Shown in pieces: positions 21,422-53,070 of a DNA stretch of 64,000 nt. The position numbers were made by a program, and so were the translations under genes. The stretch is from Saccostrea cucullata. Its lineage: Eukaryota. Position 1 is the first letter of the stretch; each line of letters opens with the position of its first letter. The stretch is from assembly GCF_032062105.1 (NCBI RefSeq), contig NW_026927146.1, positions 62,001 to 126,000 on the forward strand, in the 5' to 3' direction. A model generated the notes under the pieces. That model ran no database searches, had not been told where the DNA came from, and saw only the letters and a program-made list of their open reading frames with translations.

Positions 21422-23129
21422 GAAAATACATTATTGAGTGCAAAGACGTTTGTGTGAGGCGTCATTTTCAGTGCTTAAATCGGAAACGGCTCTTACTCAC
21501 TTTATACAACGTGTAGAGAAGAATTTACAAAAAATCTCAGCATATATGGTTAGGACTAAAAGGTGATATTATCTGCTTAAGACTTACTTCGGACATTTGT
21601 ATGTAAACGTTCGAATATGGAATTTAGAATCTTGTCGCGTGTTACAGCAAATAAGTTATATTGTACAATTGGACTTTTGCGAGAAGCACTGACTTTTACA
21701 GTATACAGCTGTTTACTTGGTCATTTAAATCTGAATCATGTATGAAAGTACAGAATTGATCATAGATAAGAAAACCTTTATAGCGATTTTAGTGGCACTA
21801 AAATGTGAAGTCCTGGAGATGTTGGTAGATTGGTTGTCATGTTCTTCAAGGGCAACTAATTTTTGCTTTTAAATAGCCTATGACTTTGCTTTTATTTAAA
21901 TGTTAAGACAACTATTTACATCGAAAAAAAGCTTCTGCACATTGTCCTAGTGTAAAAGTAAGCCGTCAACGTTAAAGTCAGCGCTCCTCACAAAATTGCA
22001 ATGTGAGTATTGCTGACAAATTGTATTAGCATAAACATTAACAGAGGTATAAAAACACACCGTACTGTTTAATAACATCAAAGAAAAAACACGTAACGCA
22101 ATTTCTTTATATTTAAAAAAACCCAAAGAAATCCCTGTCAAAACCAAAATTCTGTACGAAAATAAATTTGAGAAGTGGTGTTAATCAGATATTGATTCTT
22201 CAAAATCCCAAGGAACTTTTGAAAATCGATATGGCGATACGATATACTAGCATCTCGGTGAGATGGAAGAACTTTTTATAAGCTATGATTGAATCAAAAT
22301 TACATTATTGTCGTCCTGTACATAAATTTTTATCTTAAAAACTTTATATATTGGATAGTAAAAAGAGGTTTTTCTTCTGCTTTATTTAAGTCTAATGGAT
22401 CATTATGTTCAAGTTACATACAAATTTATCATAACAGCACATTTTAACAGCAAAATAAAATTTTCAAAAATACAGCTCATATTGTTTTAAACTTAAATTA
22501 ACGTACTTCAAATAAATCTACATATTCTAAAGTTCATCGTAAAAAATCTGAAACTATTAAATATGAGAAATATTTCTACTTGAAAATACCTACTTTTTCC
22601 CAAATACTACTTTGAAATGACCCATCTTTGCTCATTTTTATTACAAACAGTAATGATATTATCAGAGAGGAATTTTGGCACATTTAGTGTGCTGAAATTG
22701 ATGAAGCTCAATGGTAAAAAAAACCAAGATGTGTTTGTGAAACACTATGCGCCCGGCGGCAACAGAGTTCTAAAAAGCAATTATTAGCAAATGGGTCTAG
22801 ATCTCGGTCAAGGTTACACAATTATTGTCCTTATTGTCAGTTGAAAGTGTATGCATACCAATTATGAAGTACCTATCTCTCACGGTTCAAAAGTTATGGC
22901 GAAAATTCGAAAAAGATATTTTAAGCATATAGGTCACAGACAACGTCACAAGGTCATTGACCTTGGTGTCAATTGAAGGTGCTCAATTAGTGGAGTAACA
23001 CAATCCAAAACAAAAAGGGAAAATCAAAATTCCCTTTTTTTCACCCAAGGTTTACAATCTGAAGTCATTTTGGTCTTAAAATCCTTATATGTGTCTCCAC
23101 AAGTTCCCTTTTTGAAGATTTTTTTTTAA

Positions 23130-23302
23130 GTATTTGAGGAACGTTCCTCTTTCTACACTTCAGATGCATTTGTTATGACCAGATTTTTGAGGAACGTTCC
23201 TCTTTCTACACTTCAGATGCATTTGTTATGACCAGAGATTTGAGGAACGTTTCTCTTTCTACACTTCTGGTGCATTTGTTATCACCAAACATTTGAGGAA
23301 CG

Positions 23303-23336
<34 letters not shown>

Positions 23337-24080
23337 CTTAAGATATGTTATGACCAGGCATTTGAGGATTGTTCCTCTCTCTGAACTTCAGATGCATTTG
23401 TTATGACCAGACATTTGAGGAACGTTCCTCTCTCTGAACTTCAGATGCATTTGTTATGACCAGACATTTGAGGAACGTTCCTCTCTCTAAACTAAGATGA
23501 ATTTACTATCACCAGACATTTGAGTAACGTTCCTCTCTTACATGTGCACATACAGCGTGTATTTTTAAATACTTTAAGAATCTTAAAACATGAGACATTT
23601 GAGGAACGTTCCTCTCTCAAATTCACTTTTTCTGAAGACATCTCATGAATGGTCAAACATCAGGCATTTGAGGAACGTTGCTCGCTCGAATTTAATTATT
23701 ACTGTAGGCATCTCAAGGATTGTCAAATATCAGGCATTTGAGGAACGTTCCTCTCACAAATGGTTGTCTCATGAATTGTCAAACATTAGGCATTTGAGGA
23801 ACGTTCCTCACTAAAATTTAACATTGTTCACACAGGATACGTACATGTATGAGGAACGTTCCTCTCTCAGATTTGTATATGTTGATACCTTATTCATATT
23901 AAATCAGGCATTTGAGGAACGTTCCTCTCACAAATGGTTGTATTTCTGCAGCTGTTAATTTATACCTCATGAAGCTTGAAACCTGTGCATTTGAGGAACG
24001 TTCCTCTGTCTTGTAATGGATATCTGTTGATACATTGTAAAGCCCATTTAAAAATAACTTTAAAGAAACGTTCCTCTCTA
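23130..24080 (+). repeat. Left subterminal array: ~16 copies of the palindrome GAGGAACGTTCCTC (outer copies in ~53-bp tandem units)
   Basis: The unit tttgaggaacgttcctctttctacacttcagatgcatttgttatgaccaga recurs at 23136, 23189, 23242, 23295 and onward. Inner copies have variable spacers. Confidence 0.92.
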
Positions 24081-24829
24081 ACATTATCATGTGTTTTGTG
24101 ATATTATATTAGTTTTTAACATTTTTTATCTGTACACACTCTACAAAATATATATGAAAAATCAGTTTGTCATTTTATAAAGTACTTTTTGAATTAAGGC
24201 TTTCATAAAGCATAATATAAACTAGGTACAGGAACAAACAAATTTTTCACTTCAGAACAAGCATGTGCAATGTGCAGTGTTCATGTATCAACTCAAAGGG
24301 CTTTTTCACTGAATGGCAGTGTGATCACATATTATAATGTCTTGGTTAACAGGTTAATACCCACAGTATTTTTCCTTTCTACCATGAAATTAAACCATGT
24401 GATGAAGGTCAACCATGTTTCTTTCTCGGTTACATCTTTCCCTCATAATAGAGACGATTCCAATTCCTTGGTCTCCAAGGGTTAAATTCATAGCATTTTT
24501 TATCAGTCACAGTAAAACAGCCTCAATAAGTTTCTTGGGTGTCATCTTCTGTAGGAAAAATCTCACATTCAATACAGCGGCATGTAGTATTATCAAAGAT
24601 GTGATTCAGGCAAAGTTAGAATAATCAAAACAATGTGTACATAATAACAAGTTTTGATGTCTCATCTAAAAATTAAATAGACTGGAAAAATTGATATAAA
24701 AAAAATAGCAAAACTTAAATTAAAATTTTGAACTTTAAATTGCCCATGAATTATGAAAGCATTTCCATACTGTATTAAGAATATTGCAAAATTGACACTT
24801 TCTATCTTTCTCATACTATTTTAATGAAA

Positions 24830-25026
24830 TACTGTAAATGTTTTATATTTAGAGTGTACTATATTTGGCGGAAGTTGATATTTTAAGAAGTTAGCGTAGG
24901 TATGATTTAGCCCATTTTAATGTTTTATGTTTAAGATATTTAGCATTGTACTTAAATTAGCGGATGTTTCTTTCCGCCAAAAAGCTAAAAAAAGAATACA
25001 CCGCCAAATGTTACACGTTTACAGTA
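24830..25026. mobile_element. Small TA-flanked TIR element nested in the foldback element
   Basis: Ends tactgtaaa ... tttacagta, with internal inverted atttggcgg/ccgccaaat. Confidence 0.6.
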
Positions 25027-26818
25027 ATAACTCTGATTTGCAAATTATATCTGAGAACAGTCATTCTCCTTTATATCTTGCATGTAACACTAATTTTAAA
25101 ACTAAGTGACAATTGGAAATGTAAATTATAATAATATATAGGTCTTAAGCCCCGTACTCCTCCAATGAACATTTTATATACATGTATGATAATATAAGTC
25201 ATCAAGTTTAATTTTTTTTCTCTTTTTCCATAGTGCATGCAGCTGTCATATAATATTTCATGGGTTTTATTAATGTATTCTTTAATTTACACGAACCTAT
25301 TTTCATTCTGAATCTCAATTAATTTGTATTATATTGTAGTACTATTGTGTATTTCTTAAAACTGAAGAATTGATTCTTTAATAGGGATTTGTCTAGTAAC
25401 CCTAATTCCTGCATCATTCTCTACTTTAAAGATAAAGACTTTGAGACCTTGATGTCTTCCTGGCCCCAGTTCACAGTGTAATTGTTATTAATCACTGCCA
25501 ATCATATATGCTCATGGAACACTAGCTATAGGCGATCAGCTCTGGCAACTATCTGTCCCCTGTGACTTCATGGACAGTAAAGATCAGTGCTGATGCTATG
25601 ATGACTTGATCGTGTTATAGATAAACATGTCTCTGCAGTCAGAAGATTGAAGCAATTTACATTGTAGAACAGAACTCAAACAGTGAGAGAATTAAGATCT
25701 TGTTAGAGTTTAAAATTTTACTCCCTTAAAATCTGGATAGTTTCAATATATTTAAAAAACAAAAAATGTAATGAACTTTATATACGCTGTAAAACTTTAC
25801 TAATTATTCTAGTTCGGGAATAACAAATATCAGGCTAAAATCTGGTTTGTACATATTAAATGCAAAGAAACATTACACAGAATTATTTTGTAAAAAAAAA
25901 AATAATAATGTGAAAACAGCATCTCCTGCACTTAATTGTCAGATCTTAAGGAAGCAGGAATAAGAATCCATATTTCCAAAAAAAAAAAAACCACCTTAAA
26001 AAATGTTTTATTGATTTAGAATATTTTATTAAATTATTAGCACATGTATTAAAAGAAATGTTGTACTGAGTAATACAGGTATACAATTGTATGTTTTATT
26101 GATTGGCTATTGCTCATCTTCCTTCCCCCTTTTCAAAGTTAGATACTTTGATAATGAAACTATCTTTGATTTAATTGTTAATTTCAGAGACATACACTCT
26201 GAATTTCACAGATTTCCTATATCTTGGATTGCAGTGTGGGTCATTTGGGATTTAATAATTTAGCCAGCTGCAGCAAGGTCAAAAGTCTATGTTATCTGTA
26301 AAACTTGAGGTCAAGTGATATAACCCCGGTCTTATCTGCTTTCATTATTTAGAAATAATTTAAGAAGATTTTCTTCAACTCTTTGAAATTACATTCACCA
26401 ACACTGGAACACTGAGTTTCTAAGAATAAAGAATTTCATTGGTGTACATATCAGCCATGTGTTATAAAAATGAACCTTTCTAATGAAACTGAATAGTGCA
26501 TCTTTACTCCGCTTTAACCTAATAAATAAATAATAACAAAATTACGGTTATACATGTATGCATAAAATGATGGAAGTATCAACTAGTGAAACTGTTACTC
26601 GTATTTTTAGTAATACTATTTTTCTTTTATCAGGGACCGGACACTGAGTACACACGACATGATCTGCCGATCTTAATAACCATACATATAACATGTATAA
26701 CTACCGTAATATACAATTTTTTAAGATCTGAATTATAAATACTTATTTATAATTAAATAATACATGTACTTAAGTTATTGTTAAAGTATTAAACTAATCC
26801 TTAACAATAGGTGTAATT

Positions 26819-27237
26819 TAGGGCTGGGCAATAATATCGATATTTCAATATATTGCAATACAGTGACAAAAAATATCGTATCGCAATACGATTTTGTAAT
26901 ATCGATATATTGGCAATATGCTTAGATTAAGGAATTTTGTCATAATACACATATATTAATATAAAACTGGACTTATGAAAGTTTGTTATTAAGCCAAACA
27001 GTAAGTCAGAAGTTGTTTTGTGGGTATATTCAGAGTATAACTTAAACGAAATCAACAACATTTTTTTCCGTGTTGGTTACCTATCATAGTTATGTACATT
27101 CTGCATGTAAATTAAAGTAAATATAGTAAGAAAATGCCATTTTTATTATATTGAAAATATTGCAATACATATCGCAATACAGTTGAAAATATCGCAATAT
27201 ATCGCAATACGAAATCTCAGGTCAATACCCAGCCCTA
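26819..27237. mobile_element. hAT-like MITE nested in the foldback element
   Basis: TIR tagggctggg ... cccagcccta, repeated atcgcaata subterminal motifs and an imperfect aggtgta duplication in the flanks. Confidence 0.75.
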
Positions 27238-29974
27238 AGGTGTATGTAGGAATATAAATAAGATGCCACCTTTGGATTTTTTTAGAATAAAATATATTTT
27301 TCAGTGGGATAGTGATGATTGACAACTAAAAGAAACTTCATATTCACTCTATTTTGGACTGCATTCCATTTTGATTAATATTAAAAATCTGTTAAAACAA
27401 TTAATGAAATACATAAAATGTGAGTTTGTATTTAATTATTTTTTTTTTTTTAGAAAAGATTAATATATAGAATGACAAAAAACCCTTTGAGATAAATTTG
27501 TTTTGTTATATATGTTTCTTTAAATTGTACACGTGTACTTAAGCTTTGATCATAATCCTTGCAGTTGACAACACAACAAAATATGCCTAGAATTTTTATA
27601 AAAATTAAAAAAATTTTCCCGGTAAATTGTTTCAGAAAAGTGTTTAAATCTTTTATAATTAGTTTTTTTTTAAATTTTATCCTTATTCTAACCGCAGCAT
27701 ATAGTTTAAAAGGATACAATATTGGGATAATAATTTATTGAATTTGTGTCTTTTTTTTCCATAATATTTCAAGATAACCAATTTAGAGTAAAATTTTAAC
27801 ATGTTTTTATAGGAGGGTATGATATCAGACAAGGTCACTATATTGCTAGCAAAGAAAAACACATGATTTTAATATACATGTATTAAGTACTCCTGTTCAT
27901 ACACACAAGTAATAGAGCTAACGATATCTTGGGAAAGAATAAACATTTTACCAGTGACCACTTAGTGAAGCCGATGAAGGGATAATTGTCTCAGAGTTTA
28001 AGATTTCAGCATTGGCCATACATAAACAAACTATACGGCTCTGTTTCATCTAAACACATTAATTCTTTGACACACTAGATTATTCCTTTGAGCCTTGTTG
28101 AATGTGTTCTGCTCTGCTCTAAAACCATCAGAATTAACAGTGCTGAGCATCTTGTGAAGCACGGATGATTTTTGGATTGAACTAGGTGAAACACAGCTAT
28201 TGTTCTCTTTATCAAATCAATTAATGTTTGATTTAAAAAAAAGCAAATAAGACACTGACTTGACATATAAAATATACCAGATCTGTCCAAAACTTTAATT
28301 GAACATAGAGTGTACGTCTCTTAATTATCATATTAAAAGATATACCCGGTAATACAAATTAAAAACACTACATAAATATGTATATTTTGCATATTTTTAA
28401 AAAGTATATAGGATACGTTCAGTGGCAAGGGGGGGGGGGGTATTTTTTTAAGGAGCAAATTCTCAATCAAAGTTTCCTGTGTTAGGAAGCCAAAAAAATT
28501 AGTATGGGCACGGACCCCACCCATCCCCACTCCCATCCCCCAAAAAAATAAATAAAGAAATTGAGATAAGTAAATGATGAATAATAAAAAAAATTAACAA
28601 AATACAGTAAAAAATGAGTTTTGCCAACACACTTATGTTGAATTGAGTTACACAAAGTGCTTTTATTCCCTGTGACTTAATTATGTATTTTTATCTTCAT
28701 AACTAATTTCGCTCATAATAATGCAAAATCATCCGTCGATCCCTGGCACTGCTTTTTATACATGTTTTACTTGTATTCAACATAATTAATCTATTTCCTG
28801 CCATGTACAGCATTTGATAACATATAATATATTGGAATTCATAGAAATTCTAATTTTCCCAACTACCGGTAATAATGAAAATTATGACTACTGTACTTAC
28901 TTGATTTGTTTAGGACATTTTAATCATTTCTCTGAAATGTTGCTGCAAGTGGTGTCATGAGGGTATTCGTTTTCTTTTACATTGAAATCCAGGGCATATC
29001 ATTTTGTCTAAAATTAAAGTAAATTTCTCATTTTAATATACTGGTATTTGGAAGTGTCTGACAGCTTATATTTCAGCAGGATTGATCAACTCTGACTAAG
29101 TTATTGATAAAATATTTTAGTTTAGTTTTTATGCAAACAAAGCATACAAAGAATTTTCATAAATTGATAATATTATTATTTGCATATATACCTTGATAAA
29201 TCCTTAACTGTGAAGAACTGCAACATCCTGTTTTATTCAACAATCTTTCGATGTGATAATCATCTTCTGATTTGAAATTGTGAACATTTTGGTAGGGTTG
29301 AGAGATGGATGTGTCCAAGACTGATAACACACCCAAGATTATCAGTGTGCAGTGTTGATTGACATTTCTTCAGTTAGTGGCACCACATGTGTCCATTCAA
29401 ATATGTATGGAAGGGTCGCAGTTGCACATGTGAACAGCTATCATTTAAATGCAACTGTTGTTTGAAGGGGAATTCGAAATTGGAGAAATTAGACATTGAT
29501 ATATCTGTGTGTTATACTGTGTTATACTGTGATAAAGTTATATAATTAGTTTTGGTCAAAAAACTGCGTGATGAAGTAAGTAGAGACATACATGCATGAT
29601 TTTCAAATGTCAATGGATGTTCAACTTATAGAGAATTTACTGGTCAATGCACTGACTTTTCATAAATTAATCTTGGATGAACTATACTAAAAAAGCTAAG
29701 GGTAAGAATACTTTTCCTGAAAGATTTTTTCATTTAATAAATATCATAAAATTTCAATTGCTAAAGAAAATTGTTTATTTTAGTGTAAGAAAGCATAATG
29801 CTTTATACAACAGTTATTTATATCATAATGGGAAATGCAGGGGACCAGGGGAATGGTATAACTTTTTTGATCAATTCCTTGTTGTAGATTTTGTCTCTTG
29901 CACGATTCAAACAGTTGCCCTTTTTTCTCATTTAAAATAAAAATAAACATTTACTCTTTATTCAGCAGATATAC

Positions 29975-30500
29975 ATTCCTATATCCAGAGATATGACCTC
30001 AAAATAAAATGTGATCATGTATACTCCTAAGGAGTGGTACCAACGAGTTTAATGTCTGTAATAATAAGAGACTTTTCACAAAATTGAGTGAAAAATGATT
30101 TCCTAAAATATTAATTGTCAAGAATGACACGTACTTGATCTTGTGATCGAGTTATGACCCCCAAATTAAAAGTGGTCATATATTTCTTAGGAGGACTACA
30201 GATCTAGTGAATTAAATTATTTTTCAAACATTAGAATCTCAAGTTACTAGTACTTAAATATTGAGTAAACAATACTTTTCTTTTTCTAGATCAGTTTGAG
30301 CCTTGTGCTTTCACCTTGTAACCCAAAATCAGTAGGGTCTTTATTCCTTTGGGAGTACCAGTATACTAAGTTTGATGTCTGTAAAGCAAAGGGTTCCCAA
30401 AATTTTAAGCAGACATTATTTTTCTGTGTCAGAATAGTCTCAACCTTGAAATTTGACTTTATGAAATAAACAGGATTATCTACTCTTTTACGTTAGGGAG
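29975..30500. repeat. Degenerate ~160-bp tandem units (satellite/Helentron-like)
   Basis: The motif tgacc.caaaat.aa..g.g.tcat.tactc recurs near 29994, 30154, 30318 and 30455. Confidence 0.45.
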
Positions 30501-30629
30501 TACCTGGGTGTATAGCTTTCTTCAAATCCAATTATACTCTGATTCATGTATAAGTTATATAATAACATTGAATCTCAAGTTACTTAACAACATAACAAAG
30601 TATTCTACATGAATCCATTGTCAACAGTT

Positions 30630-31556
30630 GGAAGAGGAATGTTCCTCCAGTCCAGTGTCAAATTTTGAAATGGGGAGAGGAACGTTCAGTGTATTAAGAT
30701 TCATGGTAGTAGTGTTTTGATAGGAATTGGTAGAGGAATGTTCCTCAAATGTACTGTTTATATACAGTCATGTAGTATGTATTATCAACAGAAATTGACT
30801 GATGAACGTTTGTGATATTGTGTGTTAAAACTTGTAAATACAGTGTCAAGTTGAAAGAGGAACGTTCCTCCAGTGTATATAGTATCAATATTTGAAATTG
30901 GATGAGGAACGTTCCTCAAATATGTTGTGTTTAGACTAGTAAATCCAGTGTCAATAGTTTGAAGAGGAACGTTCCTCCAGTGTACATGGTGTATATAGTA
31001 TCAATATTTGAAATTGGAAGAGGACCGTTCCTCTAATGCCTAATATTTGAAAATTTATGAGATGCCTACGGTAATAAGTAAATTTGAGAGATGAATGTTC
31101 CTCAAATGCCTGATGTGTTCATTCATAAGGTATTATAAAATACACACTGTATGTGCACATCTTTAAGAGAGGAACATTACTCAAATGTCTGGTGATAATA
31201 AATGCATCTTAGTTTAGAGAGGGGAATGTTCCTCAAATGTCTGGTCATAACAAATGCATCAGAAGTACAGAGAGAGGAACGTTCCTCAAATCTCTGGTCA
31301 GAACAAATGCATCTGAAGTTCAGAGAGAGGAACGTTCCTCAAATCTCTGGTCATAACAAATACATCTGAAGTGTAGAAAGAGGAACGTTCCTCAAAAGTC
31401 TGGTCATAACAAATGCATCTGAAGTTCAGAGAGAGGAACGTTCCTCAAATCTCTGGTCATAACAAATACATCTGAAGTGTAGAAAGAGGAACGTTCCTCA
31501 AAAGTCTGGTCATAACAAATGCATCTGAAGTGCAGAAAGAGGAACGTTCCTCAAAT
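30630..31556 (-). repeat. Right subterminal array: ~17 copies of GAGGAACGTTCCTC (outer copies in 53-bp tandem units)
   Basis: Mirror image of the left array, with copies at 31274, 31327, 31380, 31433, 31486, 31539 and others. Confidence 0.92.
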
Positions 31557-32155
31557 ACTTAAAAAAAATCTTCAAAAAGGGAACTTGTGGAGACACATAT
31601 AAGGATTTTAAGACCAAAATGACTTCAGATTGTAAACGTTGGGTGAAAAAAAGGGAATTTTGATTTTCCCTTTTTGTTTTGGATTGTGTTGGAGTATGCA
31701 TACCAAATATGAAGCCTCTATCTCCCACTGTTCAAAAGTTATGGCGAAAGTTCGAAAAAACTATTTTTAGTATAAAGGTCACAGTCAAGGTCACAAGGTC
31801 ATTGACCTTGGTGTCGGTTGAAAGTGCTTAATTTGTAAAGTTTGCATACCAAATATGAAGTCTCTATCTCTCACGGTTTAAAAGTTATGGCGAAGGTTAA
31901 AGTTGACAACAGACAGACAAACAGATAAACAGATAAACAGACAAAGACAGACAAACAGATAGACAGACAAACAGACAAACAGACAGACAGGACAAAAACA
32001 ATATGCACTCCGAATAAATTCGGGCGCATAATAATTGGACTGCACTATCATGTCCGTTTGTTTTAGCAATCGACAGAGGACTGGCTACATTCTTGTTACA
32101 TAAATTATTCATTTCCATAGTTTAGCAAGAGTTTCACATTGCTGTTATGTCCAAT

Positions 32156-35100
32156 TTAAGAACCCGTATGGAGGGGACTGTCCCCTTCGATGTCAGCTAA
32201 ATTGATTTCGGCACCATTGTCAAGTAAAAGATGTACCGTGCTTTCATGTCCATTTTGACAAGCTATATAAAGAGGACTTGTTCCATTCTTGTTACACAAA
32301 TTGATGTCGGCGCCGTTGTTCAGTAACTGTTGTACCGTGCTATCATGTCCTTTTTTGCAAGCTGTATACAGAGGGCTTTCGCCATCTTTGTTGCATAAAT
32401 TGATGTCGGCGCCATTGGTTAGTAACAGTTGTACCGTGCTGTCATGTCCTTTTTGACAAGCTATATAAAGAGGACTGTCGCCATCAATATCACATGAATT
32501 GATATTGGCGTCGTTGTTCAATAGCAACTGAACCGTGCTATCATGTCCATTTTGACAAGCCATATAAAGTGGACCGACTTTATGTTTTATATCGGAATCG
32601 ATGTGTGCACCATGATTTAGTAATAGTTGTACTGTGTTATCATGTCCATTTTGACAAGCTAAACAGAGGAAACCGACTCCATCGTCGCAATATAAATTGA
32701 TATCGGCACCGTTGTCCAGTAACAGTTGTACCGTGCTATCATGTCCATTTTGACAAGCTATATAAAGAGGACTGAATCCATTATTATCACGCGAATTGAT
32801 GTCAGCACCATTATTCAGTAAAAATTGCACCATCCTATCATGTCCATCATGACAAGCTGCAAAAAGAAGTCCGACTTCATTGTTTTTATAGGAGTTGATG
32901 TCGGCGCCATTGTTTATTAACAGTTGTACCGTGCTATAGTGCATATTTTTACAAGCTATATAAAGTGGACTTAATCCCTTGTTATTACGAAAATTGATGT
33001 CAGCACCGTTGTTCAATAACAGTTGTACAATTGTATTATGTCCATTCTGACAAGCTATATAAAGAGGACTAAATCCATGATTATCACATGAATTTATGTC
33101 AGCACCATTATTCAGCAACAATTGTACCGTGCTATCATGTCCATTGTCACAAGCTATGCAGAGGGGACTGACTCCATCGTTGTTACATGAATTGATGTCG
33201 GCACCATTGCTCAATAACAATTGTACATTGCTATCATGTCCACTTTGACAAGGAATAAAGATGGCTGTGTTTCCATCATTGTCACTTAGATTTATGTCGG
33301 CACCATTTTTCAATAAAAGTTGTACCGTGCTATTATGTCCTTTTTGACAAGCTTTAAAAAGAGGACTGAATCCATCATTATCACATGAGTTGATGTCAGC
33401 ACCATTGTTCACTAACAGTTGTAACGTGCTATTATGTCCATTTTGAGAAGCTATATCAAGAGGACTTGCTCCATGTTTTTCACATAAATTGACGTTAGCA
33501 CCGTTGTTCAGTAAAAGCTGCACCATGCTATTATGTCCATTTTGACATGCAATGTAAAGAGGAGTGAGCCCATTGTTGTTACCTAAATTGGTATCGGCAC
33601 CGTTGTTTAGTAGGATTTGTACTGTGCTTGTATGTCCATTGTAACAAGCTGTTAGAAGGGAACTGTCTCCATTCTTATTACAAAAATTGATGTTGACACC
33701 GTTGTTAAGTAAACGCTGCACCATGCTATCATGTCCATTTTGACATGCAATGTAAAGAGGAGCGAGTCCGTCGTTGTTTCCTAAGTTGGTATCGGCACCG
33801 TTGTTAAGTAAGATTTGTACCGTGCTTTCGTGTCCATTGTAACAAGCTGTAAGAAGGGAACTGTCTCCATTCTTATTACAAAAATCGATGTTGGCACCGT
33901 TGTTAAGTAACAGTTGTACCATGCTATTATATCCTTTCTCACAAGCAATATTAAGAGGACCGACTCCATCATTATTACATGAATTGATGTCTGCACCTTC
34001 ATTCAGTAGCAGTTGTACCGTGCTCTCATATCCGTTTTGACAAGCTAGCCACAGTGGAGTAGATCCACTTTTATGGCAAAGACCGATGTCGGCACCGTTC
34101 TTCAGTAGAAGATTTACCGTGCTATCATGTCCATTATGACAAGCTATACAGAGGGGGCTAACCCCATCATTATCACATAAATTGATGTCGGCACCGTTGT
34201 CCAGTAACAATTGTGCCGTACTATCATGACCATTTTGACAAGCTATAAAAAGGGGACTGAATCCATCATTAGAAGACGAATTAATGTCTGCACCGTTTTC
34301 CAGTAACAGCTGTACCGTGCTACTATGACCATTTTGACAAGCGATATGAAGAGGGCTGAATCCATTATTGCTACATAAATTGATGTCGGCACCATGGCTC
34401 AGTAAAAGCTGTGCTGTGCTATTATTTCCATTTCGACAAGCTATATGAAGAGGACGGACTCCATTCTTATTATATGAATTGATATCAACACCGTGGTTCA
34501 ATAAAAGACGCACAGTGCTAGTTTGTCCGTATTCACAAGCTGCAAAGAGGGAATTGAATCCATCGTTGTTGCATAAATTAATGTTGACACCGTGGTTCAG
34601 TAAAAGCTGCACCGTGCTATCTTGTCCATTAAAACAAGCTGCACAGAGGGGGCTGACTCCGTATTTGCTGCTTAAATTTATGTTGACACCATGGCTCAGT
34701 AAAACCTGCACCACGCTATCATGTCCATTATAACAAGCTGCGCAGAGGGGGCTGACTCCATCAGCGTTACATGAATTGATATCGGCACTGTTGTTAAGTA
34801 ACAATTGAACCGTGCTAGCATGTCCTTTTTGACAAGCTATGAAAAGAGGACTGATTCCATCACTATCATATAAACTGACATCAGCACCGCTGTTCAGTAA
34901 TAGTCGTACTGTGCTATCATGGCCATTTTGACAAGCCATATAAAGAGGACTTAATCCTTCCTTATTACATGAATTGATGGCAGCACTCTTGTTCAGTAAC
35001 AGTTGTACCGTGCTATTATGTCCACATTGACAAGCTACGGAAAGAGGACTTAACCCATCCTTGTTTTTGAAATTAATGTCGGCATTGTTGTTTAGCAAAA

Positions 35101-36931
35101 GCTGCACTGTGCTGTAGTGTCCACTTTGACAAGCTACATATAAAGGACTGACTCCAGTCTTGTTACATGGATTGATGTCAGCGCCTTTCTTCAATAACGA
35201 AGCAATAGTTGCGTTACGTCTTTCTCCCTTATTTGTATTCATTCCAGCTTCTTTCAAGTGTTCTTCGTCATTCCAAGCAGCTAATGATAATGGGTTCCAC
35301 AAATATGTTGTTAACTTGTTTACGTCAGCACCAAGTCGTACTAATTCCCCAATTATTAAAAAATTATGAAATGCAGAGGCAGTGTGAACTGGTGAAAATT
35401 TGCCCCAGATTTCCATCATTGCTGATTTTTTATATTCCTCGCTAAGAATATTTAACAGTTTTAAATCACCATTCGCACATATAGCAGAGAATATAGGAAA
35501 TCCTTTCAACTTTGTTTCAGGGATACTATTTAAGAAATATGAAGAAATATCTGTATGACAAAATACGATGAGCCCGACCAAAGGACATATTTTATCTTCT
35601 GCTTCAAGGAAATCAAGCCTTGAAAATGAAGAACCACTGCCCTCAAATGATTTTGAAAATTCCGACCTGTCCAATTCACATTTAATTTTGACAAGAAGCT
35701 TCCCGAATGAATCCACTTTTTCCTTAAAAGATTTTATCACGCGTTTATTTCGTAAGCATGGATTGAGAAGAACATCTACAAAGTGTTCTGTTTGTATGTC
35801 AGTAATAAACCTTTTCACAAGATCACCAATGTATTCTTCAGGCAAGTAAACAGTTAACGGATCTCGATCTTTCTCCTCTTTATTGCCCTCCATTCTCATC
35901 CGACGTCTCAGAAAACCACTGTCTGCGTACTGAATTAATTTTCTTGGACAATCAACACCAAACACCAGAATCGCTATCTCCATTATAAAGTCGTGAAGAA
36001 ATTGGAAAGCATTTCCAACACGTTTGACAAAAGATCCTGTAAGTTCACGTAGAGTACTACGAATAACTGAAATATCTGTGTTTTCTTGTAACTCACACGT
36101 TGCTAAAATGTCTTTATATTTCATCATTGAAATTTCATTTCTTTCAATATCATCGATTTTCAGATTGTTTTTAAAAGAGAAAATCAAGAAAAGAGAGCAG
36201 AATTTTTTCTTGTCTGTTTTCTTCCAAATTTCTATTTCCTGTTTAATAAATCTGTATGGATTTTTGAAGAAATCTACCCCTTTTTCTTTGAAATTTGTCT
36301 CCCTTGAATAAAGCTTACAAAGCAATGGAAAGTAAGCTTCTGTTTTGATTATTTCCGTTACAATGTTTTCTGATATTTCCCGATTTTTTGAATACTGATA
36401 GTAAATCGCTCTTTTCTCTTCAATCGTCAGTCCATTTTCTTTGTTGTCAATTTCTACTGCAGTGGATTCGTCCAAAAGGGTACCCATGATTCTCTTGTCA
36501 TAAAAAACGCATCTTCTACATGATATCAATAGTTTACAATTATTCAAGCAAATCTCAAGCGTTTTCTGAAAAGTTTTCCATGAATGATATGCAATTTCAT
36601 CAAACGATTCCTTACCAAAAGGATCATTGAATACAAATAATGTCCGATTTTCTGAGACTCCAGGTGAACATATCTTTTTAATTTCTTTTACCGTATTCAC
36701 TGGTATGACATTCCACTCATGGTCTTTAAGATAGAGTGCAACATGTTGAATTAATGCAGATTTGCCGGAACCAGAATTTCCAACCACTGTGATAAAATTT
36801 TGACTTTTAAGCTTTTCATTCACCACTTCACTTGCCTTTGTAGGGATGAAGGCAATGTCGTCTTCCCGCCAATTCTCGAGAATGTCTTCCACAATTCTGG
36901 AACGGTCACCAGGGTCGGGTGCAGAAGCCAT
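32156..36931 (-). CDS. STAND-class (nSTAND3-like) P-loop NTPase fused to ~30 ankyrin repeats, 1591 aa, single coding exon
   Basis: Uninterrupted ORF. Walker A GNSGSGKS (36781-36758), Walker B-like LFVFNDPFG (36640-36614), LLISCR sensor strand, YFPLLCKLY and FQFLHDFIME (winged-helix HD motif). These are followed by 30 canonical 33-aa repeats (SPLxxACxxGHxSTVQLLLNNGADIN). A likely 5'-UTR acceptor lies at 36962-36963, with an in-frame stop before the ATG. Confidence 0.93.
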   Translation of the reverse strand: MASAPDPGDRSRIVEDILENWREDDIAFIPTKASEVVNEKLKSQNFITVVGNSGSGKSALIQHVALYLKDHEWNVIPVNTVKEIKKICSPGVSENRTLFVFNDPFGKESFDEIAYHSWKTFQKTLEICLNNCKLLISCRRCVFYDKRIMGTLLDESTAVEIDNKENGLTIEEKRAIYYQYSKNREISENIVTEIIKTEAYFPLLCKLYSRETNFKEKGVDFFKNPYRFIKQEIEIWKKTDKKKFCSLFLIFSFKNNLKIDDIERNEISMMKYKDILATCELQENTDISVIRSTLRELTGSFVKRVGNAFQFLHDFIMEIAILVFGVDCPRKLIQYADSGFLRRRMRMEGNKEEKDRDPLTVYLPEEYIGDLVKRFITDIQTEHFVDVLLNPCLRNKRVIKSFKEKVDSFGKLLVKIKCELDRSEFSKSFEGSGSSFSRLDFLEAEDKICPLVGLIVFCHTDISSYFLNSIPETKLKGFPIFSAICANGDLKLLNILSEEYKKSAMMEIWGKFSPVHTASAFHNFLIIGELVRLGADVNKLTTYLWNPLSLAAWNDEEHLKEAGMNTNKGERRNATIASLLKKGADINPCNKTGVSPLYVACQSGHYSTVQLLLNNNADINFKNKDGLSPLSVACQCGHNSTVQLLLNKSAAINSCNKEGLSPLYMACQNGHDSTVRLLLNSGADVSLYDSDGISPLFIACQKGHASTVQLLLNNSADINSCNADGVSPLCAACYNGHDSVVQVLLSHGVNINLSSKYGVSPLCAACFNGQDSTVQLLLNHGVNINLCNNDGFNSLFAACEYGQTSTVRLLLNHGVDINSYNKNGVRPLHIACRNGNNSTAQLLLSHGADINLCSNNGFSPLHIACQNGHSSTVQLLLENGADINSSSNDGFSPLFIACQNGHDSTAQLLLDNGADINLCDNDGVSPLCIACHNGHDSTVNLLLKNGADIGLCHKSGSTPLWLACQNGYESTVQLLLNEGADINSCNNDGVGPLNIACEKGYNSMVQLLLNNGANIDFCNKNGDSSLLTACYNGHESTVQILLNNGADTNLGNNDGLAPLYIACQNGHDSMVQRLLNNGVNINFCNKNGDSSLLTACYNGHTSTVQILLNNGADTNLGNNNGLTPLYIACQNGHNSMVQLLLNNGANVNLCEKHGASPLDIASQNGHNSTLQLLVNNGADINSCDNDGFSPLFKACQKGHNSTVQLLLKNGADINLSDNDGNTAIFIPCQSGHDSNVQLLLSNGADINSCNNDGVSPLCIACDNGHDSTVQLLLNNGADINSCDNHGFSPLYIACQNGHNTIVQLLLNNGADINFRNNKGLSPLYIACKNMHYSTVQLLINNGADINSYKNNEVGLLFAACHDGHDRMVQFLLNNGADINSRDNNGFSPLYIACQNGHDSTVQLLLDNGADINLYCDDGVGFLCLACQNGHDNTVQLLLNHGAHIDSDIKHKVGPLYMACQNGHDSTVQLLLNNDANINSCDIDGDSPLYIACQKGHDSTVQLLLTNGADINLCNKDGESPLYTACKKGHDSTVQQLLNNGADINLCNKNGTSPLYIACQNGHESTVHLLLDNGAEINLADIEGDSPLHTGS

Positions 36932-37209
36932 TCTTTTGGTTTTTGAAGTTTAATTACCACTCTGAAATTTCAATGCTATAGTTTATCAATTTGATCGGTA
37001 ATTAAAGCCTAACATACGTACTTAAAGAATATTTTTTCATGTGTTGCAAAGGTTTTTGGGGATGTATTCTTCTCAGGTTTTATAGCGAGACGTAACGAAG
37101 TTGGGAGACCGTTAATTCTCTTTTTTTAAGATTGTGCAACTTGAAAGGAGATGGTACACATGGGTTCAAATTCTAGCAGGGACGTCATGAATACATTTAT
37201 TTCTATTTT

Positions 37210-37720
37210 GTCTGTTTATCCTCAAAAACGTTAACTTTGTCCAAAACATTTAAGTGAGGCTATGGCTTTCATATTTCACAGGTGTATTTCTCGTGACAAG
37301 ACTTTTCTTTTGATACCATTGACCTTTTGACCTTCATTTTAGAGTATGGCCCACTTTAAGATAAAAAACAATATTGACAATAATTTTTGAACAATTATTA
37401 CTAAGGCTTTCATTTTTCACAGGTATATTCCTTGTGACAGGATCTTTCATTGGATACCAAAACGTTTGACCTTTTGACCTTGACCGTAGATTTTTACCAC
37501 TCAAAAACTTTAATCTTTAAAAATTTAACATTTTGAACCGTTAGTACTACATCATCCATATTCCAAATGTGTAATTTCTTATGAGGAGAACTTTCGTTTC
37601 AGTGTATGCCAGCTATTTCGACTTTTTGAACTTGACCTTCGAGTTTAACCTGCAGTTGTGAAATTTCAGACATGCCATAAGCTGCCATTCGGTGGCATCT
37701 GTGTTTCACAAAAGTATCCT
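37210..37720 (-). repeat. Helentron/satellite-type tandem monomers
   Basis: Three related units (ggctttcatatttcacagg...gtgacaagac...gatacca...gaccttttgaccttg) ending with ggcatctgtgtttcacaaa. Confidence 0.6.
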
Positions 37721-39222
37721 TTAATTAAATATATTTTTTTATTAAGAAGTATGTCATCATTTCATTGTTATTTCCTAATTTTCTATTTCATTTTGTGACT
37801 TTTGTAACTACCATTTATTTTTATTACAAATTACTTTGTCTTCGTGAAGCATTCAAATTTTGTTACTTCCATCATCAACATATCTACAGGTAATTCAGAA
37901 GAAAAAAAAACATTAGATTTATAATAATATGCAATTTGTATTATTTGCCTTATCTCTACAAAAATACATAACACGTTATGATTGTATGAAAGATCATCAA
38001 TGGTCATTATGTATCATTATCATTATCGGTTTTGTTTTGTTCTTTATATCGAAACTGAAGGATACGGTTACCAAAACCAGGGTCTACCTAGTAAGTATCA
38101 ACTAGATTACATTTAAATCTCTATACCCCAGCCCTGCCCTAACCCCTGGTTACATGTGCCTGGTCTGGATACGATGTTTTGAACGTGTAAAACTGTAGCG
38201 TGAAGCGTAGCGTCTGAAGTGTAGACCGTCTCCGGTTCCTCAACGGTTACTTATAACAACATGAGGGCCTGCGAAGAGAATCGGATGAAGGCGAAAGCTG
38301 GTCAACTTAAAAGAAAATACCAACACTATCACAATATGTAACTGTATTTATTATAAACATGTATCTTAAACTTGCTTCTAGTCTCCTAATTTGGAATATT
38401 CTAATGTTTTTTCATTATAAAACAATGTAATAAAATGGTTGAATTGTTTTTTTTTTCATCGTTTAAAGCTGTACCTGATCAATACACAATCCTCTCTGTA
38501 CACCTTAAATGAATAGTAACCTTATCGTTTTTAAAAATAAACTGTTAAAATAATTACATATTCTTAAAACATGATCCATGTGAAAAATATCCAGAGCATA
38601 GTTTCCAAGATTTATAACTTTTTTTTACATATCAATAACCTGTGTAAAAGGAACCATTTATGTCAGACGCCATTCCATGTAATATTAGATCGGCATTGAC
38701 GGTGTTTAAATCTATAATGGATATCTAAATACCCACTCTACTGGATGAATAACTTTTTAGTAGCTCTTTTGAAGCAAAAAGATCGTCTTTATATTTACAA
38801 TTCAGTGTACTGAATCAAAAAAACTTATTTAAAAGAGTAAGATTTGATAACAAGTACTGGAAGTTTGTTAGAATATTTGTAAAAAATTCACATATCATAC
38901 TTTATCTATTCGAAAAATACACATATCAATAATATGTACATGTGAACATTTAGTTATGATGATGTATTTACAATTAATGAAATCCATAGCGTAATGCGTA
39001 ATTGTAAGCAACTGTTATTGCTTATACACTCCTTTGTAATCTGTTATCGAAAATAAACAGTGGTAACAATTTCTTTTCATTACAAGTAATTGTTATTTAA
39101 TTGATTACTCAAAAGTCTTGTAATCATGATAACTTTTTTTTTTATTTCTCCATTAATACAATGGAAAAAAAGTGTCATCCTTGCTTGAGACCAGATCTAA
39201 CGACAATTATCTGGTGTTCCAA

Positions 39223-39521
39223 TTTTTATGCGCCCGGATCGATAGATCGGGGCATACATTGTTTTTGTCCTGTATGTCTGTTTGTCTGTTTGCCTGTTCG
39301 TGTCTCTGTCTGTCTGTTGTCAACTTTCACATTCGCCATAGCTTTTGAACCGTGAGAGATAGAGACTTCATATTTGGTATGCACACTTCACTAATTAATT
39401 TTTTTTCAAATGACACCAAGGTCAATCACCTTTTGGCCTTGACTGTGACCTATATACTAAAAATAGCTTTTTCAAACTTTGTTGCTGCTGGGTGCATAGC
39501 GTTTCACAAACACATCTTGTT
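39223..39521 (-). mobile_element. Short intact copy of the Helentron-type HINE
   Basis: Reverse complement of the 22722/32032 element: same aacaagatgtgtttgtgaaac start, one core monomer, the microsatellite and a 3' hairpin. Confidence 0.8.
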
Positions 39522-41302
39522 ACTTATTGTTTTAAATATTAGCCAATTACTTATTGTACTAATGTGCTGTAGAATTTATTCAAGCACTATACATAAAAAG
39601 AAAAAGAAATACTCTGACCTTGACCTCTTTATTCAAATATATGAAGGACGTTTTATCTAAGGTTAAATAATTACTTCTACCTATTTGCCATCTCGATATG
39701 TCCTAATGAACTTGAAAGACACCACAAAATATATATTTGGCTTATTATAGATGAAAATGAAACGATTTAAGATTTTCCATATTAATTTTTATTATATGGT
39801 AAATTGTCCACACATCACCTGCAAATAGTGTTTTTGACACCCAACCTTTTAAGATATTGCTCTAGTTACAAAGACAGATGTTTGACTATTAACTGATGCA
39901 ACTGAGACTTTTTTATTTTTAAATGTTGCATCATTCATAAAGACACCCTAAATCCAGGGTCAAAAAGGAGTCTTTTTCTACCATGTCCTTTATGAACTGC
40001 AGTTTACCATCATTATTGGTTATTTGTTGATGATATTTTCTTCTTGTAAGAAACAAATTTCTTAATCATCCTATGAGCACCGCATCTCCGTAACTGCACG
40101 CATGGTGTTGTTCGTAAAATATCCTCACTAATTTCGATAAAAAAGCAATTATCCACATTTAATGTTAAAAAAAACTAACCAAATGACAATTTAAATTTTA
40201 TTTAAAGTCTTATTTCAAATCTATGTTAAATGACTAAAGGAATCAAAATGAATTTCATTTGCAAATTCAAAGTTATTTTTTTAAGCAGATCTTGCCTGAA
40301 ATAGAGTATCGCCCATAATGTTACAACTGTAATGGTATATATTTGGGTTTAAGTAACACAAAAACGATGCAGACAAATTTCTTAAAAATATCAGAGACCT
40401 AAATATAATAACAAGGGATTCATATGGCTAATATTCATAGGATATGTATGTTTTCGCGTTACGTTAAAAGGCCTGCAACTCTGCGATCTAAGTTAATGCT
40501 CTACTATTCAGGAGTTCTATATTTGAATAGGATATTCATAATGAACTTTATTGTAAAATGGCTGTCGATATTTTTTTTTATCCTTTACAGAAGGCCCTGA
40601 TCGCATGAAAATCTTTGTGTAGACTTCAGATTATCAATATCCCAAATTAAAAAAAATATTTTGAAAAATACTTACAGATTCTAAGAATAAATCCATTTGA
40701 AAGAAACCAGATGTATAATAACTACGATTTAGAACTTTCTGTAGATATGTAATCACTCTAACAGGTTATACATGCATATGGATAAGACGCAAATCAATTA
40801 TTTAAAAATTGCATTCAGAATTCTCAATACAATGACAGAGAGGAGAATTGCCAAAGTTTAAAATCCCTATTGATTATCATTTTACAGCTCTTTTGAAGCG
40901 TAACAATTGTCTTCATACCAATAAATGCAGTGTACGATGGTAAATAAAGCTGATCCCAGAGATAAAGTCATCTTTTCCACACGAGTAAATATGCATATCA
41001 TAATAGGTCCCGTAAAAACACGGAATCAAGATTTTGTATTATATCATTTAAAGTCAAACACATAAATAATCTATTATATATTAAATAAAATACAAAATCT
41101 AAATCAGGGTAAAGTAAAAAAGAATATATACTCTTCAAAAAAAAAGAAACGCATAGTAGAATTTTTGGTGTCACATTGAACATAAAGATTATTTAGTAAA
41201 ATGATGTATTAATAAAACAGAAATGTGGTTAACAACAGGAATACTATCTAAATGTAATAATTACTCAAGAATTTCAAAATCAGAGTTTGAGGTCATTAAA
41301 GA

Positions 41303-42348
41303 TCAATATCTGGTATGCCCCCCCCCGCCGCGCAGACACAAATGATAGCCACAGACGGCATCTAACGGAAGCAAATGTGTGAAATAAATACTTGATAAGA
41401 ATACTCTCCCACTCCAAATGTAGAGCTTTGGTCAGCTTTTGCAGAGTCTGAGGATGCGATTGTCTTTGGCAAATCATGTCAATCCATTTTTGTCCAACAA
41501 TGCTTAATCTGGATTAAATCTAGTGATTTAGTTGAGTGTGGCAGAAACAGGTTACTGTTGCTTTGCAAGAATGGGAGTATCAAACGAGCCGTATGTGGCT
41601 GTTTATTGTAGGATTGCAATACGGCTCTAGGAAGCTGCAAAATTGAATAGGCATGTGTAGGTAGAACATGGTTAGAGTACCTTTTTCCATTCATTTGGTT
41701 ACCAAATTAATGTCACATATATCACTAATTTGGTTAGAATTCAATGAATTCAAGTCCATTGAATCAATCTTACTTTCTTATAATACCGTTTTTCATATAA
41801 TTACATTACCACCACCAACTTTTTTTAACGTCCTGGAGGCAGTTATCTGTCTAACATTCATTACAAAGCACCAGCACTCTTAAACAGATAAGAGGGTTTT
41901 AGATAAACATTCGTGACTAGTAGCGAAACCAAAATGTTCAGCGGTGATGCTGTGGTCATACTCAATTGATCTGAGATCTTTGAAGTCGATATTTGGAGTG
42001 TTGTAGGGTCGGAACAATGGCATGAATAATCCTCTTGGAATAATTCATAGTCAACTGAAATCGGTCTTGTTAGATGATCTGTGCAGTTCAGGGATAGCTA
42101 ATGCTTTAAATGACGTCATTGCTTTACATTCATGCAATATATGTAATCCTCTATAGTGAAGCTATTCCGCTGATGTCACAAGTAGTCTACCGTATTTTTT
42201 CAAACATTGGGTGTTCGGTGTTAATCGTTTATGTTTTATAGGTTAGATATGGCGCTCTGCGTAACATTAAAACCTCTGTAGATTGTGGTGCTCCTGCTTC
42301 CAGTCGCCAATTTTCCTTATTGTGCTATGCAACATTCAGTTGCAGCAA
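41303..42348 (-). pseudogene. Degenerate Tc1-family DDE transposase
   Basis: Frameshifted fragments match the Tc1 layout: N-terminal ..GRLEAG..FNVTQSAIS (HTH), WF..SR (WFSDESRF equivalent), GGGNV, LQSYNKQPHTAR (QQDNARPHTA equivalent), KSLDLIQIKHCW (SPDLNPIEHLW equivalent), HPQTLQKLTKALHLEWESI and terminal GGHTRY-stop. Confidence 0.85.
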
Positions 42349-52593: not shown

Positions 52594-53070
52594 ATTGTCA
52601 TAAACATACTACACAGTCATGTAAATGCACGCGCATCTAAACAGATAAAGTTTTCAGCTTATTACATGTATGTTTTTTGCCGTGTATAAGTAAAAGGCAT
52701 TATCGAAAGTATTCAATGACTGGATGGAAATTCGTTTTTTTTTTTACATTTTTTGTAAAGAATCAAGATTATTGTCTTAAGTCACGGCGCCAGGCGGTGT
52801 AAGGATCAATATTTCCATCATCCAAAATTATGGGATCATACCTAGAGAGCTAAAGTTTGCGCAAACTGATTTACATTGGAATTCTTTACCTGCATTTTAA
52901 AAGGAACAATTTTCAAAAAAAGGAATGATATTATATATATTGATGCAAAATACTACTGTACATTGTTTACTTCCTTTACTCTGTTTGCACGGAACATATT
53001 ATTCCATGCCATTCACTGTTCTTGGATTATTCTAGTGTATGAATTGATGTGCTCACTTCCATGGAATTAA

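What the first reader, a model, noticed from the sequence alone, without database searches (positions are those of the whole stretch)
22998..31689. 8.7-kb foldback-like transposon with unusual ACAC termini and a 7-bp (or 5-bp) target duplication
Seen: ~700-bp TIRs whose outer ~135 bp are almost identical, internal 53-bp tandem arrays, and the duplication tggagta. The empty site can be cross-checked inside the window: the HINE copy at 39223-39521 reads TTAGTGAAGTGTGCATACC where the reconstructed site reads TTAGTGGAGTATGCATACC. Established: long repeat-bearing TIRs with 7-bp TSDs typify Galileo-like P-superfamily foldbacks, whereas CACTA/EnSpm make 2-3-bp TSDs. Inference: the ACAC/AACAC ends do not fit these neatly, so this may be an unclassified family. 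Young-looking ends around a heavily decayed interior suggest trans-mobilisation or TIR homogenisation.
Basis: partly seen in the sequence, partly recalled or inferred. Interest (0 to 1): 0.7.

Follow-up and report, generated by a model that had tools for sequence, protein, structure and literature searches.

The report
Gene-less Sola transposon with palindrome arms
This is one of dozens of copies of a gene-less jumping element, likely from an oyster, whose ends match those of larger relatives that carry a cut-and-paste enzyme and a protein predicted to fold like bacterial ParB; these likely move it and likely grip the rows of mirror-image DNA words in its arms, a design already described in algae.

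Summary
The element is real and multi-copy, but its ends and class were misread. True termini are AACAC…GTGTT (22997–31690). The family makes 4-bp target duplications (20 of 28 distinct paired sites); this copy is one of two 5-bp exceptions (GGAGT), and the 7-bp reading comes from cutting one base inside the element. The interior is not decayed: it is a non-coding ~8.2-kb core, about 2.5% from the family majority, as young as the ends. Elements of 22–56 kb in the same genome share the termini and the 14-bp palindrome GAGGAACGTTCCTC arrays. They encode an eight-exon DDD transposase (DUF7869, RNase H fold) and, head-to-head, a protein predicted to fold like ParB/Noc. So this is most likely a non-autonomous Sola (probably Sola1) element moved in trans, not Galileo/P or CACTA. 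The closest described system is Sola1-1_Ec32 of Ectocarpus (AACCG ends, 4-bp TSD, ParB-methyltransferase gene). The difference here: no methyltransferase domain was found in the ParB partner. Which protein binds the palindromes is untested.

The parts
22997..31690 (.). Whole non-autonomous element, 8,694 bp, termini AACAC...GTGTT
22992..22996 (+). Left target duplication GGAGT (5 bp; family rule is 4 bp)
31691..31695 (+). Right target duplication GGAGT
22997..23126 (+). Outer, non-repetitive part of left TIR; first 50 nt match transposase-bearing family B at 47 of 50 and family A at 45 of 50
31561..31690 (-). Outer part of right TIR, 99% complementary to the left
23132..24076 (+). Left array: 53-bp units then looser 55-80-bp spacing, each with the palindrome GAGGAACGTTCCTC (16 sites at <=2 mismatches)
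30634..31556 (-). Right array of the same palindrome (15 sites at <=2 mismatches), 53-bp units at 31166-31556
24080..30630 (.). Non-coding interior shared by the family (this copy 2.25% from the majority base); no ORF over 94 aa, no Pfam or Rfam match, no splice joints in two poly(A) RNA runs
26819..27237 (.). Nested high-copy MITE-like insertion (419 bp, TAGGGCTGGG...CCCAGCCCTA), absent at this place from the other 23 copies compared
22716..22996 (+). Left part of the HINE-like host repeat that the element interrupts
31691..32030 (+). Right part of the HINE-like host repeat, with its GACA microsatellite

Best explanation
This is a gene-less, multi-copy DNA transposon with AACAC ends and 4-bp target duplications that is likely cut and pasted in trans by the Sola-type (probably Sola1) DDD transposase of larger relatives with the same ends, and whose palindrome rows are likely binding sites for the ParB-like partner protein those relatives encode. 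Shown: the boundaries, the 4-bp TSD rule and a palindromic target preference (tTAC-[A/T]TA[T/A]-GTAa), the absence of coding sequence, and that 22-56-kb elements with the same termini and palindrome carry an eight-exon DDD transposase and, head-to-head, a second gene. Predicted: RNase H/DDE fold for the transposase, ParB/Noc fold for the second protein. Inferred: the transposase binds the outer ~50-120 bp, excises the element and inserts it with a 4-nt (rarely 5-nt) stagger; the ParB-like protein binds the 14-bp palindromes as a dimer, as ParB binds parS, and helps these long elements move or escape silencing; gene-less copies keep the arrays because they are needed in cis.
For: TSD table and target logo. 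Family A: C17319:30174-56467 (TSD TTGT) and C19399:36033-57935 (TSD TTAT); family B: C8521:26716-82309 (4 bp, one mismatch). First 50 nt identical between family B and one subfamily of this element (50 of 50), 47 of 50 for this copy. Same palindrome is the top repeated near-palindrome in the arms of this copy, family A and family B (20, 35, 27 exact). Transposase exons splice at 7 of 7 GT-AG introns into open frames of 724 and 705 codons; PF25273 DUF7869 E=6.5e-69; D473 and D515 invariant and D390 nearly invariant in 111 homologues; model pLDDT 79.7 matches IstA, TnsB and integrases. Second protein: model pLDDT 90.3 matches Noc/ParB/Spo0J (Foldseek E 2.5e-6; VIA Z 10.1 over 98 residues, rmsd 2.9). 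Both genes show pN 0.10-0.30 against pS 0.74-0.88 between families A and B in 6 of 6 exons tested. Three more distant elements (transposases 25-32% identical over the long matches) keep the head-to-head ParB-like gene, AAYRCAWTCC-type ends and their own near-palindrome arrays. Published precedent: Sola1-1_Ec32 (PMC12477816, passages and one supplement row).
Against: No interior homology links this family to families A or B (165 proteins against 29 copies, no hit at E<=0.01), so the link rests on ends, palindrome and TSD length only. Beyond 50-76 nt the TIRs diverge (86-95 of 122 columns), so the true mobiliser may be an unassembled third family. This copy's own TSD is 5 bp. No binding or activity was tested. 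The transposase also has a candidate DNA-binding domain (weak match to the RFX5 winged helix, E=0.0019) that could read the palindromes instead. The ParB-like protein has GGNH(S/T)R and HN where bacterial CTPases have GxxRxxA and EN (canonical motifs recalled), so CTP use is uncertain. Family B's ParB exon holds 2 stops. The family A ParB gene is barely covered in three poly(A) runs (depth about 0-3 per strand over most exons). Sola1 rather than Sola3 could not be checked against Repbase.
Confidence: 0.8

Rival explanations
1. Same Sola element, but the palindrome arrays are transposase-binding sites (as the THAP sites in Galileo TIRs) and the ParB-like gene acts elsewhere or is a passenger.
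For: The transposase profile has a weak match to the RFX5 winged-helix domain (E=0.0019); arrays lie only in the arms, where transposase sites are expected. Multiple transposase sites in long TIRs are reported for Galileo (PMC3688188, search listing and start of abstract only).
Against: The ParB-like gene is kept head-to-head with the transposase in families A and B and in three distant elements and is under constraint; inverted-repeat arrays beside ParB-domain genes are reported for red-algal Plavaka elements (10.1101/2025.02.11.637652, passage). The RFX match is weak.
Confidence: 0.3
2. Galileo-like P-superfamily foldback with a 7-bp TSD.
For: Long, internally repetitive TIRs; read alone, this copy gives a 7-bp repeat tggagta.
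Against: Only 2 of 24 paired copies give a 7-bp match, and these are the two 5-bp cases plus the invariant terminal bases. Relatives with the same ends encode DUF7869 and no THAP or P domain. Galileo has 7-8-bp TSDs and a THAP domain (PMC4168063, passages).
Confidence: 0.02
3. Local inverted duplication or misassembly.
For: None beyond the near-identity of the two outer arms.
Against: 28 distinct paired sites with different flanks; interior present in an independent DNA run at 29 of 30 bins; empty-site sequence present in another HINE copy.
Confidence: 0.01

Closest known systems
Sola1-1_Ec32 of Ectocarpus (PMC12477816; main-text passages and supplement table row read; figure and sequence not seen)
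   Same: AAC-start termini (AACCG vs AACAC), 4-bp TSD, long imperfect TIR, autonomous size over 20 kb, ParB-like gene on the strand opposite the transposase; that paper also reports giant families without transposase that move in trans.
   Different: Animal host; TIR about 700 bp with arrays to about 1,070 bp (282 bp there); partner is 628-703 aa with ParB domain, helical domain, coiled coil and a small C-terminal domain, and no methyltransferase was found (1,104 aa ParB+MTase there); the window element itself has no genes.
Sola superfamily (Bao et al. 2009, not held; features from PMC10741241 passage)
   Same: DDD transposase, 4-bp TSD, TIRs within 11-1124 bp, length 2-9 kb or more than 15 kb.
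   Different: Two of 28 sites have 5-bp TSDs; second gene and palindrome arrays are not part of the basic definition.
Plavaka elements of Bostrychia with PAG3 (10.1101/2025.02.11.637652; one passage read; supplements closed)
   Same: ParB-domain accessory gene plus tandem arrays of inverted repeats proposed as its binding sites.
   Different: Different transposase superfamily; PAG3 carries a 2OG-oxygenase domain; arrays are beside the gene, here in the TIRs.
Bacterial ParB/Spo0J/Noc with parS/NBS sites (structures 7ol9, 7bnr, 6sdk, 6ryk)
   Same: Predicted ParB N-domain followed by a helical domain; short palindromic sites in arrays.
   Different: 13-20% identity; the arginine patch and EN motif (recalled) are altered; whole-model TM-scores are only 0.28-0.44; no ParA partner seen.
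Galileo (P superfamily; PMC4168063 passages, PMC3573991 abstract)
   Same: Long internally repetitive TIRs, exchange between TIRs, palindromic target motif.
   Different: 7-8-bp TSD and THAP transposase there; 4-bp TSD and DUF7869 DDD transposase here.

Membership tests
Sola superfamily | 4-bp target site duplication | tested here: met
   18 of 26 distinct paired sites plus 2 of 2; 3 of 3 paired family A-type copies; the window copy is a 5-bp exception
Sola superfamily | TIRs of 11-1124 bp | tested here: met
   about 700 bp at 88%; range from PMC10741241
Sola superfamily | DDD transposase encoded by the element itself | tested here: not met
   no ORF over 94 aa in this copy, no Pfam hit, no tblastn hit: non-autonomous
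Sola superfamily | DDD transposase in autonomous elements with the same ends | tested here: met
   IIDGMD / QADNCxRENKN / GHTHEDID, conserved D390, D473, D515, RNase H fold; that DUF7869 marks Sola transposases is recalled
Sola1 group | AAC-type termini and 4-bp TSD as in Sola1-1_Ec32 | tested here: met
   AACAC here, AACCG in the supplement row
Sola1 group | Transposase clusters with Repbase Sola1 proteins (e.g. Sola1-1_PPa) | not testable with these tools
   no Repbase or Sola1 reference sequences held; Bao 2009 and Yuan & Wessler 2011 not held
Sola2 group | DF[AS]ENY / SDG..QYKN / ATSHGK motifs | tested here: not met
   compared by eye with part 1 of 2 of the Sola2 alignment in PMC3627910 Additional file 10
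Sola3 group | TTAA target and GAG...CTC termini (recalled) | tested here: not met
   0 of 20 exact 4-bp TSDs are TTAA; termini AACAC; the definition itself is from memory
Sola1-1_Ec32-type giant elements | ParB-like gene opposite the transposase | tested here: met
   in autonomous relatives only
Sola1-1_Ec32-type giant elements | N4C/N6A methyltransferase fused to ParB | tested here: not met
   no such Pfam match in 4 of 4 full-length partner proteins; PF01555 finds 0 in the genome at E<=0.1 (exon-wise search, can miss diverged or split domains)
ParB/Spo0J/Noc CTPases | ParB N-terminal fold | tested here: met
ParB/Spo0J/Noc CTPases | GxxRxxA arginine patch and EN motif (recalled) | tested here: inconclusive
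   GGNH(S/T)xxAL and HN invariant in 9 of 9 rows: conserved but non-canonical
ParB/Spo0J/Noc CTPases | Binds a palindromic site, CTP-dependent clamp | not testable with these tools
   needs biochemistry
Galileo / P superfamily | 7-8-bp TSD | tested here: not met
   definition in PMC4168063
Galileo / P superfamily | THAP-domain transposase | tested here: not met
   Pfam on P0001 and P0002 gives only DUF7869 above cut-off
CACTA/EnSpm, Chapaev, Transib | CAC 5' terminus (recalled) | tested here: not met
   invariant AACAC with TSDs directly outside it

The most novel reading that the evidence does not exclude
An animal Sola lineage uses a stand-alone ParB/parS-like module with no DNA-modifying enzyme: the ParB-like protein loads on the palindrome rows in both arms and bridges or compacts them so that ends 8-55 kb apart can pair for transposition, and gene-less 8-kb copies parasitise both the transposase and the clamp. 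This would be a bacterial-style partition clamp serving eukaryotic transposition, and would argue that binding, not self-methylation, is the core job of ParB accessory genes in giant eukaryotic transposons.
Probability: 0.2. Interest if true: 0.8.

Novelty: new variant of a known kind. Interest (0 to 1): 0.45.

Why it matters
As annotation it is ordinary: a non-autonomous Sola family. The wider system is of moderate interest. ParB accessory genes in algal giant transposons were proposed to carry a methyltransferase or oxygenase to mark their own element. The oyster-type partner appears to lack such an enzyme yet is constrained, and gene-less copies keep about 30 palindromes. That separates cis parts (ends, arrays) from trans parts (transposase, ParB-like protein) and gives a defined test of what the ParB domain does. 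Multi-exon elements like these are missed by screens that need one ORF over 300 aa (as used for bivalves in PMC10294476, passages).

Tried and rejected
7-bp TSD with ACAC ends: rejected. Coding remnant in the interior: six-frame Pfam of this copy gave one sub-threshold hit (E=0.082); no ORF over 142 aa in 24 copies and those seen lay in arms or insertions; no codon periodicity; no Rfam match; no splice joints in two poly(A) runs. A 71-77% relative of part of the interior on C4948 has no TIR or palindrome and ends at a contig end, so the interior's origin stays open. Sequence searches did not name the partner protein (Pfam, Atlas best 0.80, PDB sequences one search gave only chance-level thymidylate synthase matches); only the fold search did. 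Its N-terminal 180 aa and C-terminal domain were not folded; 'Tudor/SH3-like' for the latter is a guess and is not claimed. Presence/absence of this insertion across individuals could not be read, because both flanks are a high-copy repeat. Four further DUF7869 or ParB-like loci (C8205, C12076, C22010, C7801, C3978; five contigs) were fetched only in part and gave no TIRs; they are not counted. Literature searches with no relevant hit: 'DUF7869' (0 papers), 'Sola transpos'+'ParB' (0), ParB+transposon+mollus+Sola (1 unrelated), Sola3+TTAA (2); one search listed the two algal papers. The Majorek 2014 supplement was cut and one file not searched; 21 of 33 supplementary files of PMC10294476 were not searched, so a curated bivalve entry for this family is not excluded. 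Repbase and Dfam were not available.
Full report
1. Observation. The window holds a long inverted repeat: outer arms 22997-23126 and 31561-31690 are 99% complementary, the arms align over 703/687 bp at 88%, and 53-bp arrays lie at 23132-23538 and 31166-31556. The repeat unit carries the perfect palindrome GAGGAACGTTCCTC: 20 exact and 31 near sites, all in the two arms; 1045 exact sites in the genome against 1 for the reversed control.

2. Copies, ends and TSD. The genome (G000, 1.17 Gb, 23,869 contigs) has 124 candidates for the outer 129 bp (40 scored, 97-100% identical), 111 end matches at two mismatches (about 13 belong to families A and B below) and 51 candidates for an interior piece. So roughly 45-55 assembled copies, haplotype duplicates included. 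I fetched both ends of 29 copies, dropped 3 as duplicates with identical flanks, and scored 26. Every copy has A before ACAC and T after GTGT, so the termini are AACAC...GTGTT. TSDs: 18 exact 4 bp, 2 exact 5 bp (this copy, GGAGT; C15373, TGACA), 2 with 4 bp and one mismatch, 4 none. Wrongly paired flanks match at 4 bp in 13 of 870. Two further distinct paired sites both gave 4 bp (C18218; C8319/C16899 is one site seen twice). The 21 exact 4-bp sites (18 plus 3 of family A type) give a palindromic target preference tTAC-[A/T]TA[T/A]-GTAa.

3. Interior. All copies share an ~8.2-kb backbone; longer ones have insertions, shorter ones deletions. This copy has a private 419-bp MITE-like insert at 26819-27237. 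Over reference positions 1200-6800 the 26 copies differ from the majority base by 1.1-4.2% (mean 2.5%; this copy 2.25%), pairwise median 4.5%; the outer TIRs differ by 4.2-5.0% between copies (the first copies were chosen by TIR similarity, which if anything favours closer TIRs). Ends and interior are therefore the same age. There is no sign of a gene or of a spliced poly(A) transcript. TIR homogenisation has some support: an AT variant at positions 15-16 is at both ends of six copies that form one interior clade (support 0.997) and matches family B, while most others carry CA at both ends; own left-right distance is 4.0% against 5.0% across copies (0 of 5000 permutations). This copy's two outer arms differ at 1 of 130 bases.

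4. Autonomous relatives. Family A (C17319:30174-56467, 26.3 kb, TSD TTGT; C19399:36033-57935, TSD TTAT, first transposase exon not found; C20291, left end beyond the contig; 11 ends in all) and family B (C8521:26716-82309, 55.6 kb with a nested element, TSD CTTT/ATTT) start with AACACAATCCAAA and carry arrays of the same palindrome in 68-bp and about 51-bp units. The first 50 nt of family B are identical to one subfamily of the gene-less element and 47 of 50 to this copy; family A matches 45 of 50. Both carry an eight-exon transposase that splices at GT-AG into an open frame (724 and 705 codons, 0 stops), with motifs IIDGMD, QADNCFRENKN and VGHTHEDIDQMFS and Pfam DUF7869. Named homologues come from Saccostrea and Magallana/Crassostrea oysters, so the host is probably a Saccostrea oyster; P0002 and P0153 are near-identical to G000 genes and may derive from the same genome, so they are not independent. 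6,546 representatives match at E<=0.001; in 111 of the best 150 plus P0001/P0002, D473, K480, G508, H509, D515, F518 are invariant and C330, C333, H359, D390 nearly so. The model of P0001 (pLDDT 79.7) matches IstA, TnsB, MuA and integrases in the RNase H core (best E 8.5e-5). The motifs differ from Sola2 (PMC3627910 Additional file 10, part 1 of 2 read).

5. The second gene. Head-to-head with the transposase lies a multi-exon gene (P0153-P0156, 628-703 aa) with no Pfam match above cut-off. A 268-residue core folds with pLDDT 90.3 from a 17-row alignment and matches Noc, ParB and Spo0J (Foldseek E 2.5e-6 to 1.7e-4, TM 0.28-0.44), phage ParB-like proteins and PadC, KorB and pNOB8 ParB (VIA Z 10.1, 9.0, 8.7). 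It is followed by a coiled coil and a small conserved C-terminal domain that I did not fold. No methyltransferase was found. Between families A and B both genes are constrained (pN 0.10-0.30, pS 0.74-0.88; 6 of 6 exons), though family B's ParB exon now holds two stops. Three more distant elements keep the layout: the one nested in C8521 (47223-72428, ends AATGCATTCC, TSD AAAT), C15455 (about 26432-45341, AATGCATTCC, TSD unclear) and C12558 (left end AACGCATTCC at 709, right end beyond the contig); each has its own repeated near-palindrome (GAGGATTAATACCC, GAGGAATGTTCCCC, GAGGAAATTTACTC). Two of them also have an OTU protease exon upstream of the transposase.

6. Mechanism. Shown: boundaries, TSD rule, target preference, non-coding interior, shared ends and palindrome with transposase-bearing elements. 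Predicted: the two folds. Inferred: cut-and-paste in trans by the family A or B transposase (or an unassembled sister), with a 4-nt and occasionally 5-nt stagger; the ParB-like protein binds the palindromes and aids pairing of distant ends or protects the element; arrays persist in gene-less copies because they act in cis. I put about 0.9 on Sola non-autonomous, 0.8 on the whole statement's main line, and about 0.6 vs 0.3 on ParB vs transposase as the palindrome reader. Against: no interior homology to A or B, non-canonical ParB motifs (canonical forms recalled), a weak winged-helix match in the transposase, very low RNA coverage.

7. Comparison and novelty. Sola: DDD transposase, 4-bp TSD, TIRs 11-1124 bp (PMC10741241, passage). 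Sola1-1_Ec32 of Ectocarpus has AACCG termini, a 4-bp TSD, 21.5 kb, best match Sola1-1_PPa and a ParB-methyltransferase gene on the opposite strand (PMC12477816); Plavaka PAG3 in Bostrychia pairs a ParB domain with inverted-repeat arrays. The design is therefore known. Earlier notes of this scan report similar elements in other genomes, animals included (unchecked AI notes, used as leads). What differs here is an animal lineage whose partner seems to lack the modifying enzyme, and a gene-less 8-kb family that keeps the arrays. Galileo/P and CACTA fail their tests. I could not see Repbase, Dfam, Bao 2009 or Yuan and Wessler 2011, so the Sola1 label rests on the Ectocarpus row and on recalled group definitions, and a prior curated entry is not excluded. 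Verdict: new variant of a known kind, interest 0.45.

Noticed in passing
window 32156-36949 (-): Single 1,597-codon open frame with an N-terminal P-loop-like stretch (GNSGSGKS) and about 30 ankyrin-like 33-aa repeats (99-bp tandem), ending about 470 bp from the element's right end.
   Followed up: no
window 826-1428 and 3163-3996 (-): Two open frames that look like exons of a carboxylesterase/cholinesterase-type gene (label by eye).
   Followed up: no
window 53067-53787 and 9117-9244: Further inverted-repeat pairs, probably MITEs or hairpins.
   Followed up: no
window 24751-25184: About ten-fold higher DNA depth than the rest of the interior: probably a small repeat fixed in the family backbone.
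   Followed up: no
G000:C8521:47223-72428 (L092-L094, L115): A distant element of the same kind (AATGCATTCC ends, 4-bp TSD, ParB-like gene, OTU protease exon) is nested inside family B, between the first and later exons of its ParB-like gene.
   Followed up: partly
G000:C15455:about 26432-45341 (L110, L111, L116) and G000:C12558:709 onward (L105-L109): Two more distant elements with transposase, ParB-like gene and their own near-palindrome arrays; C15455 has an OTU exon.
   Followed up: partly
G000:C4688:16879-19077 (L074): 2.2-kb TIR-only derivative of family A (26 palindromes, TSD AGAA).
   Followed up: partly
G000:C4948:18360-20481 (L134, L135): 71-77% relative of part of the gene-less interior with no TIR or palindrome nearby; possible source or older family.
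   Followed up: partly
G000:C7459, C16022 and C21097: A 6.3-kb deletion copy of this family lies next to broken family A transposase pieces.
   Followed up: no
G000:C12076:30148-30600 and C8205:184090-184479: ParB-like exons for which no TIR was found in the stretches fetched.
   Followed up: partly
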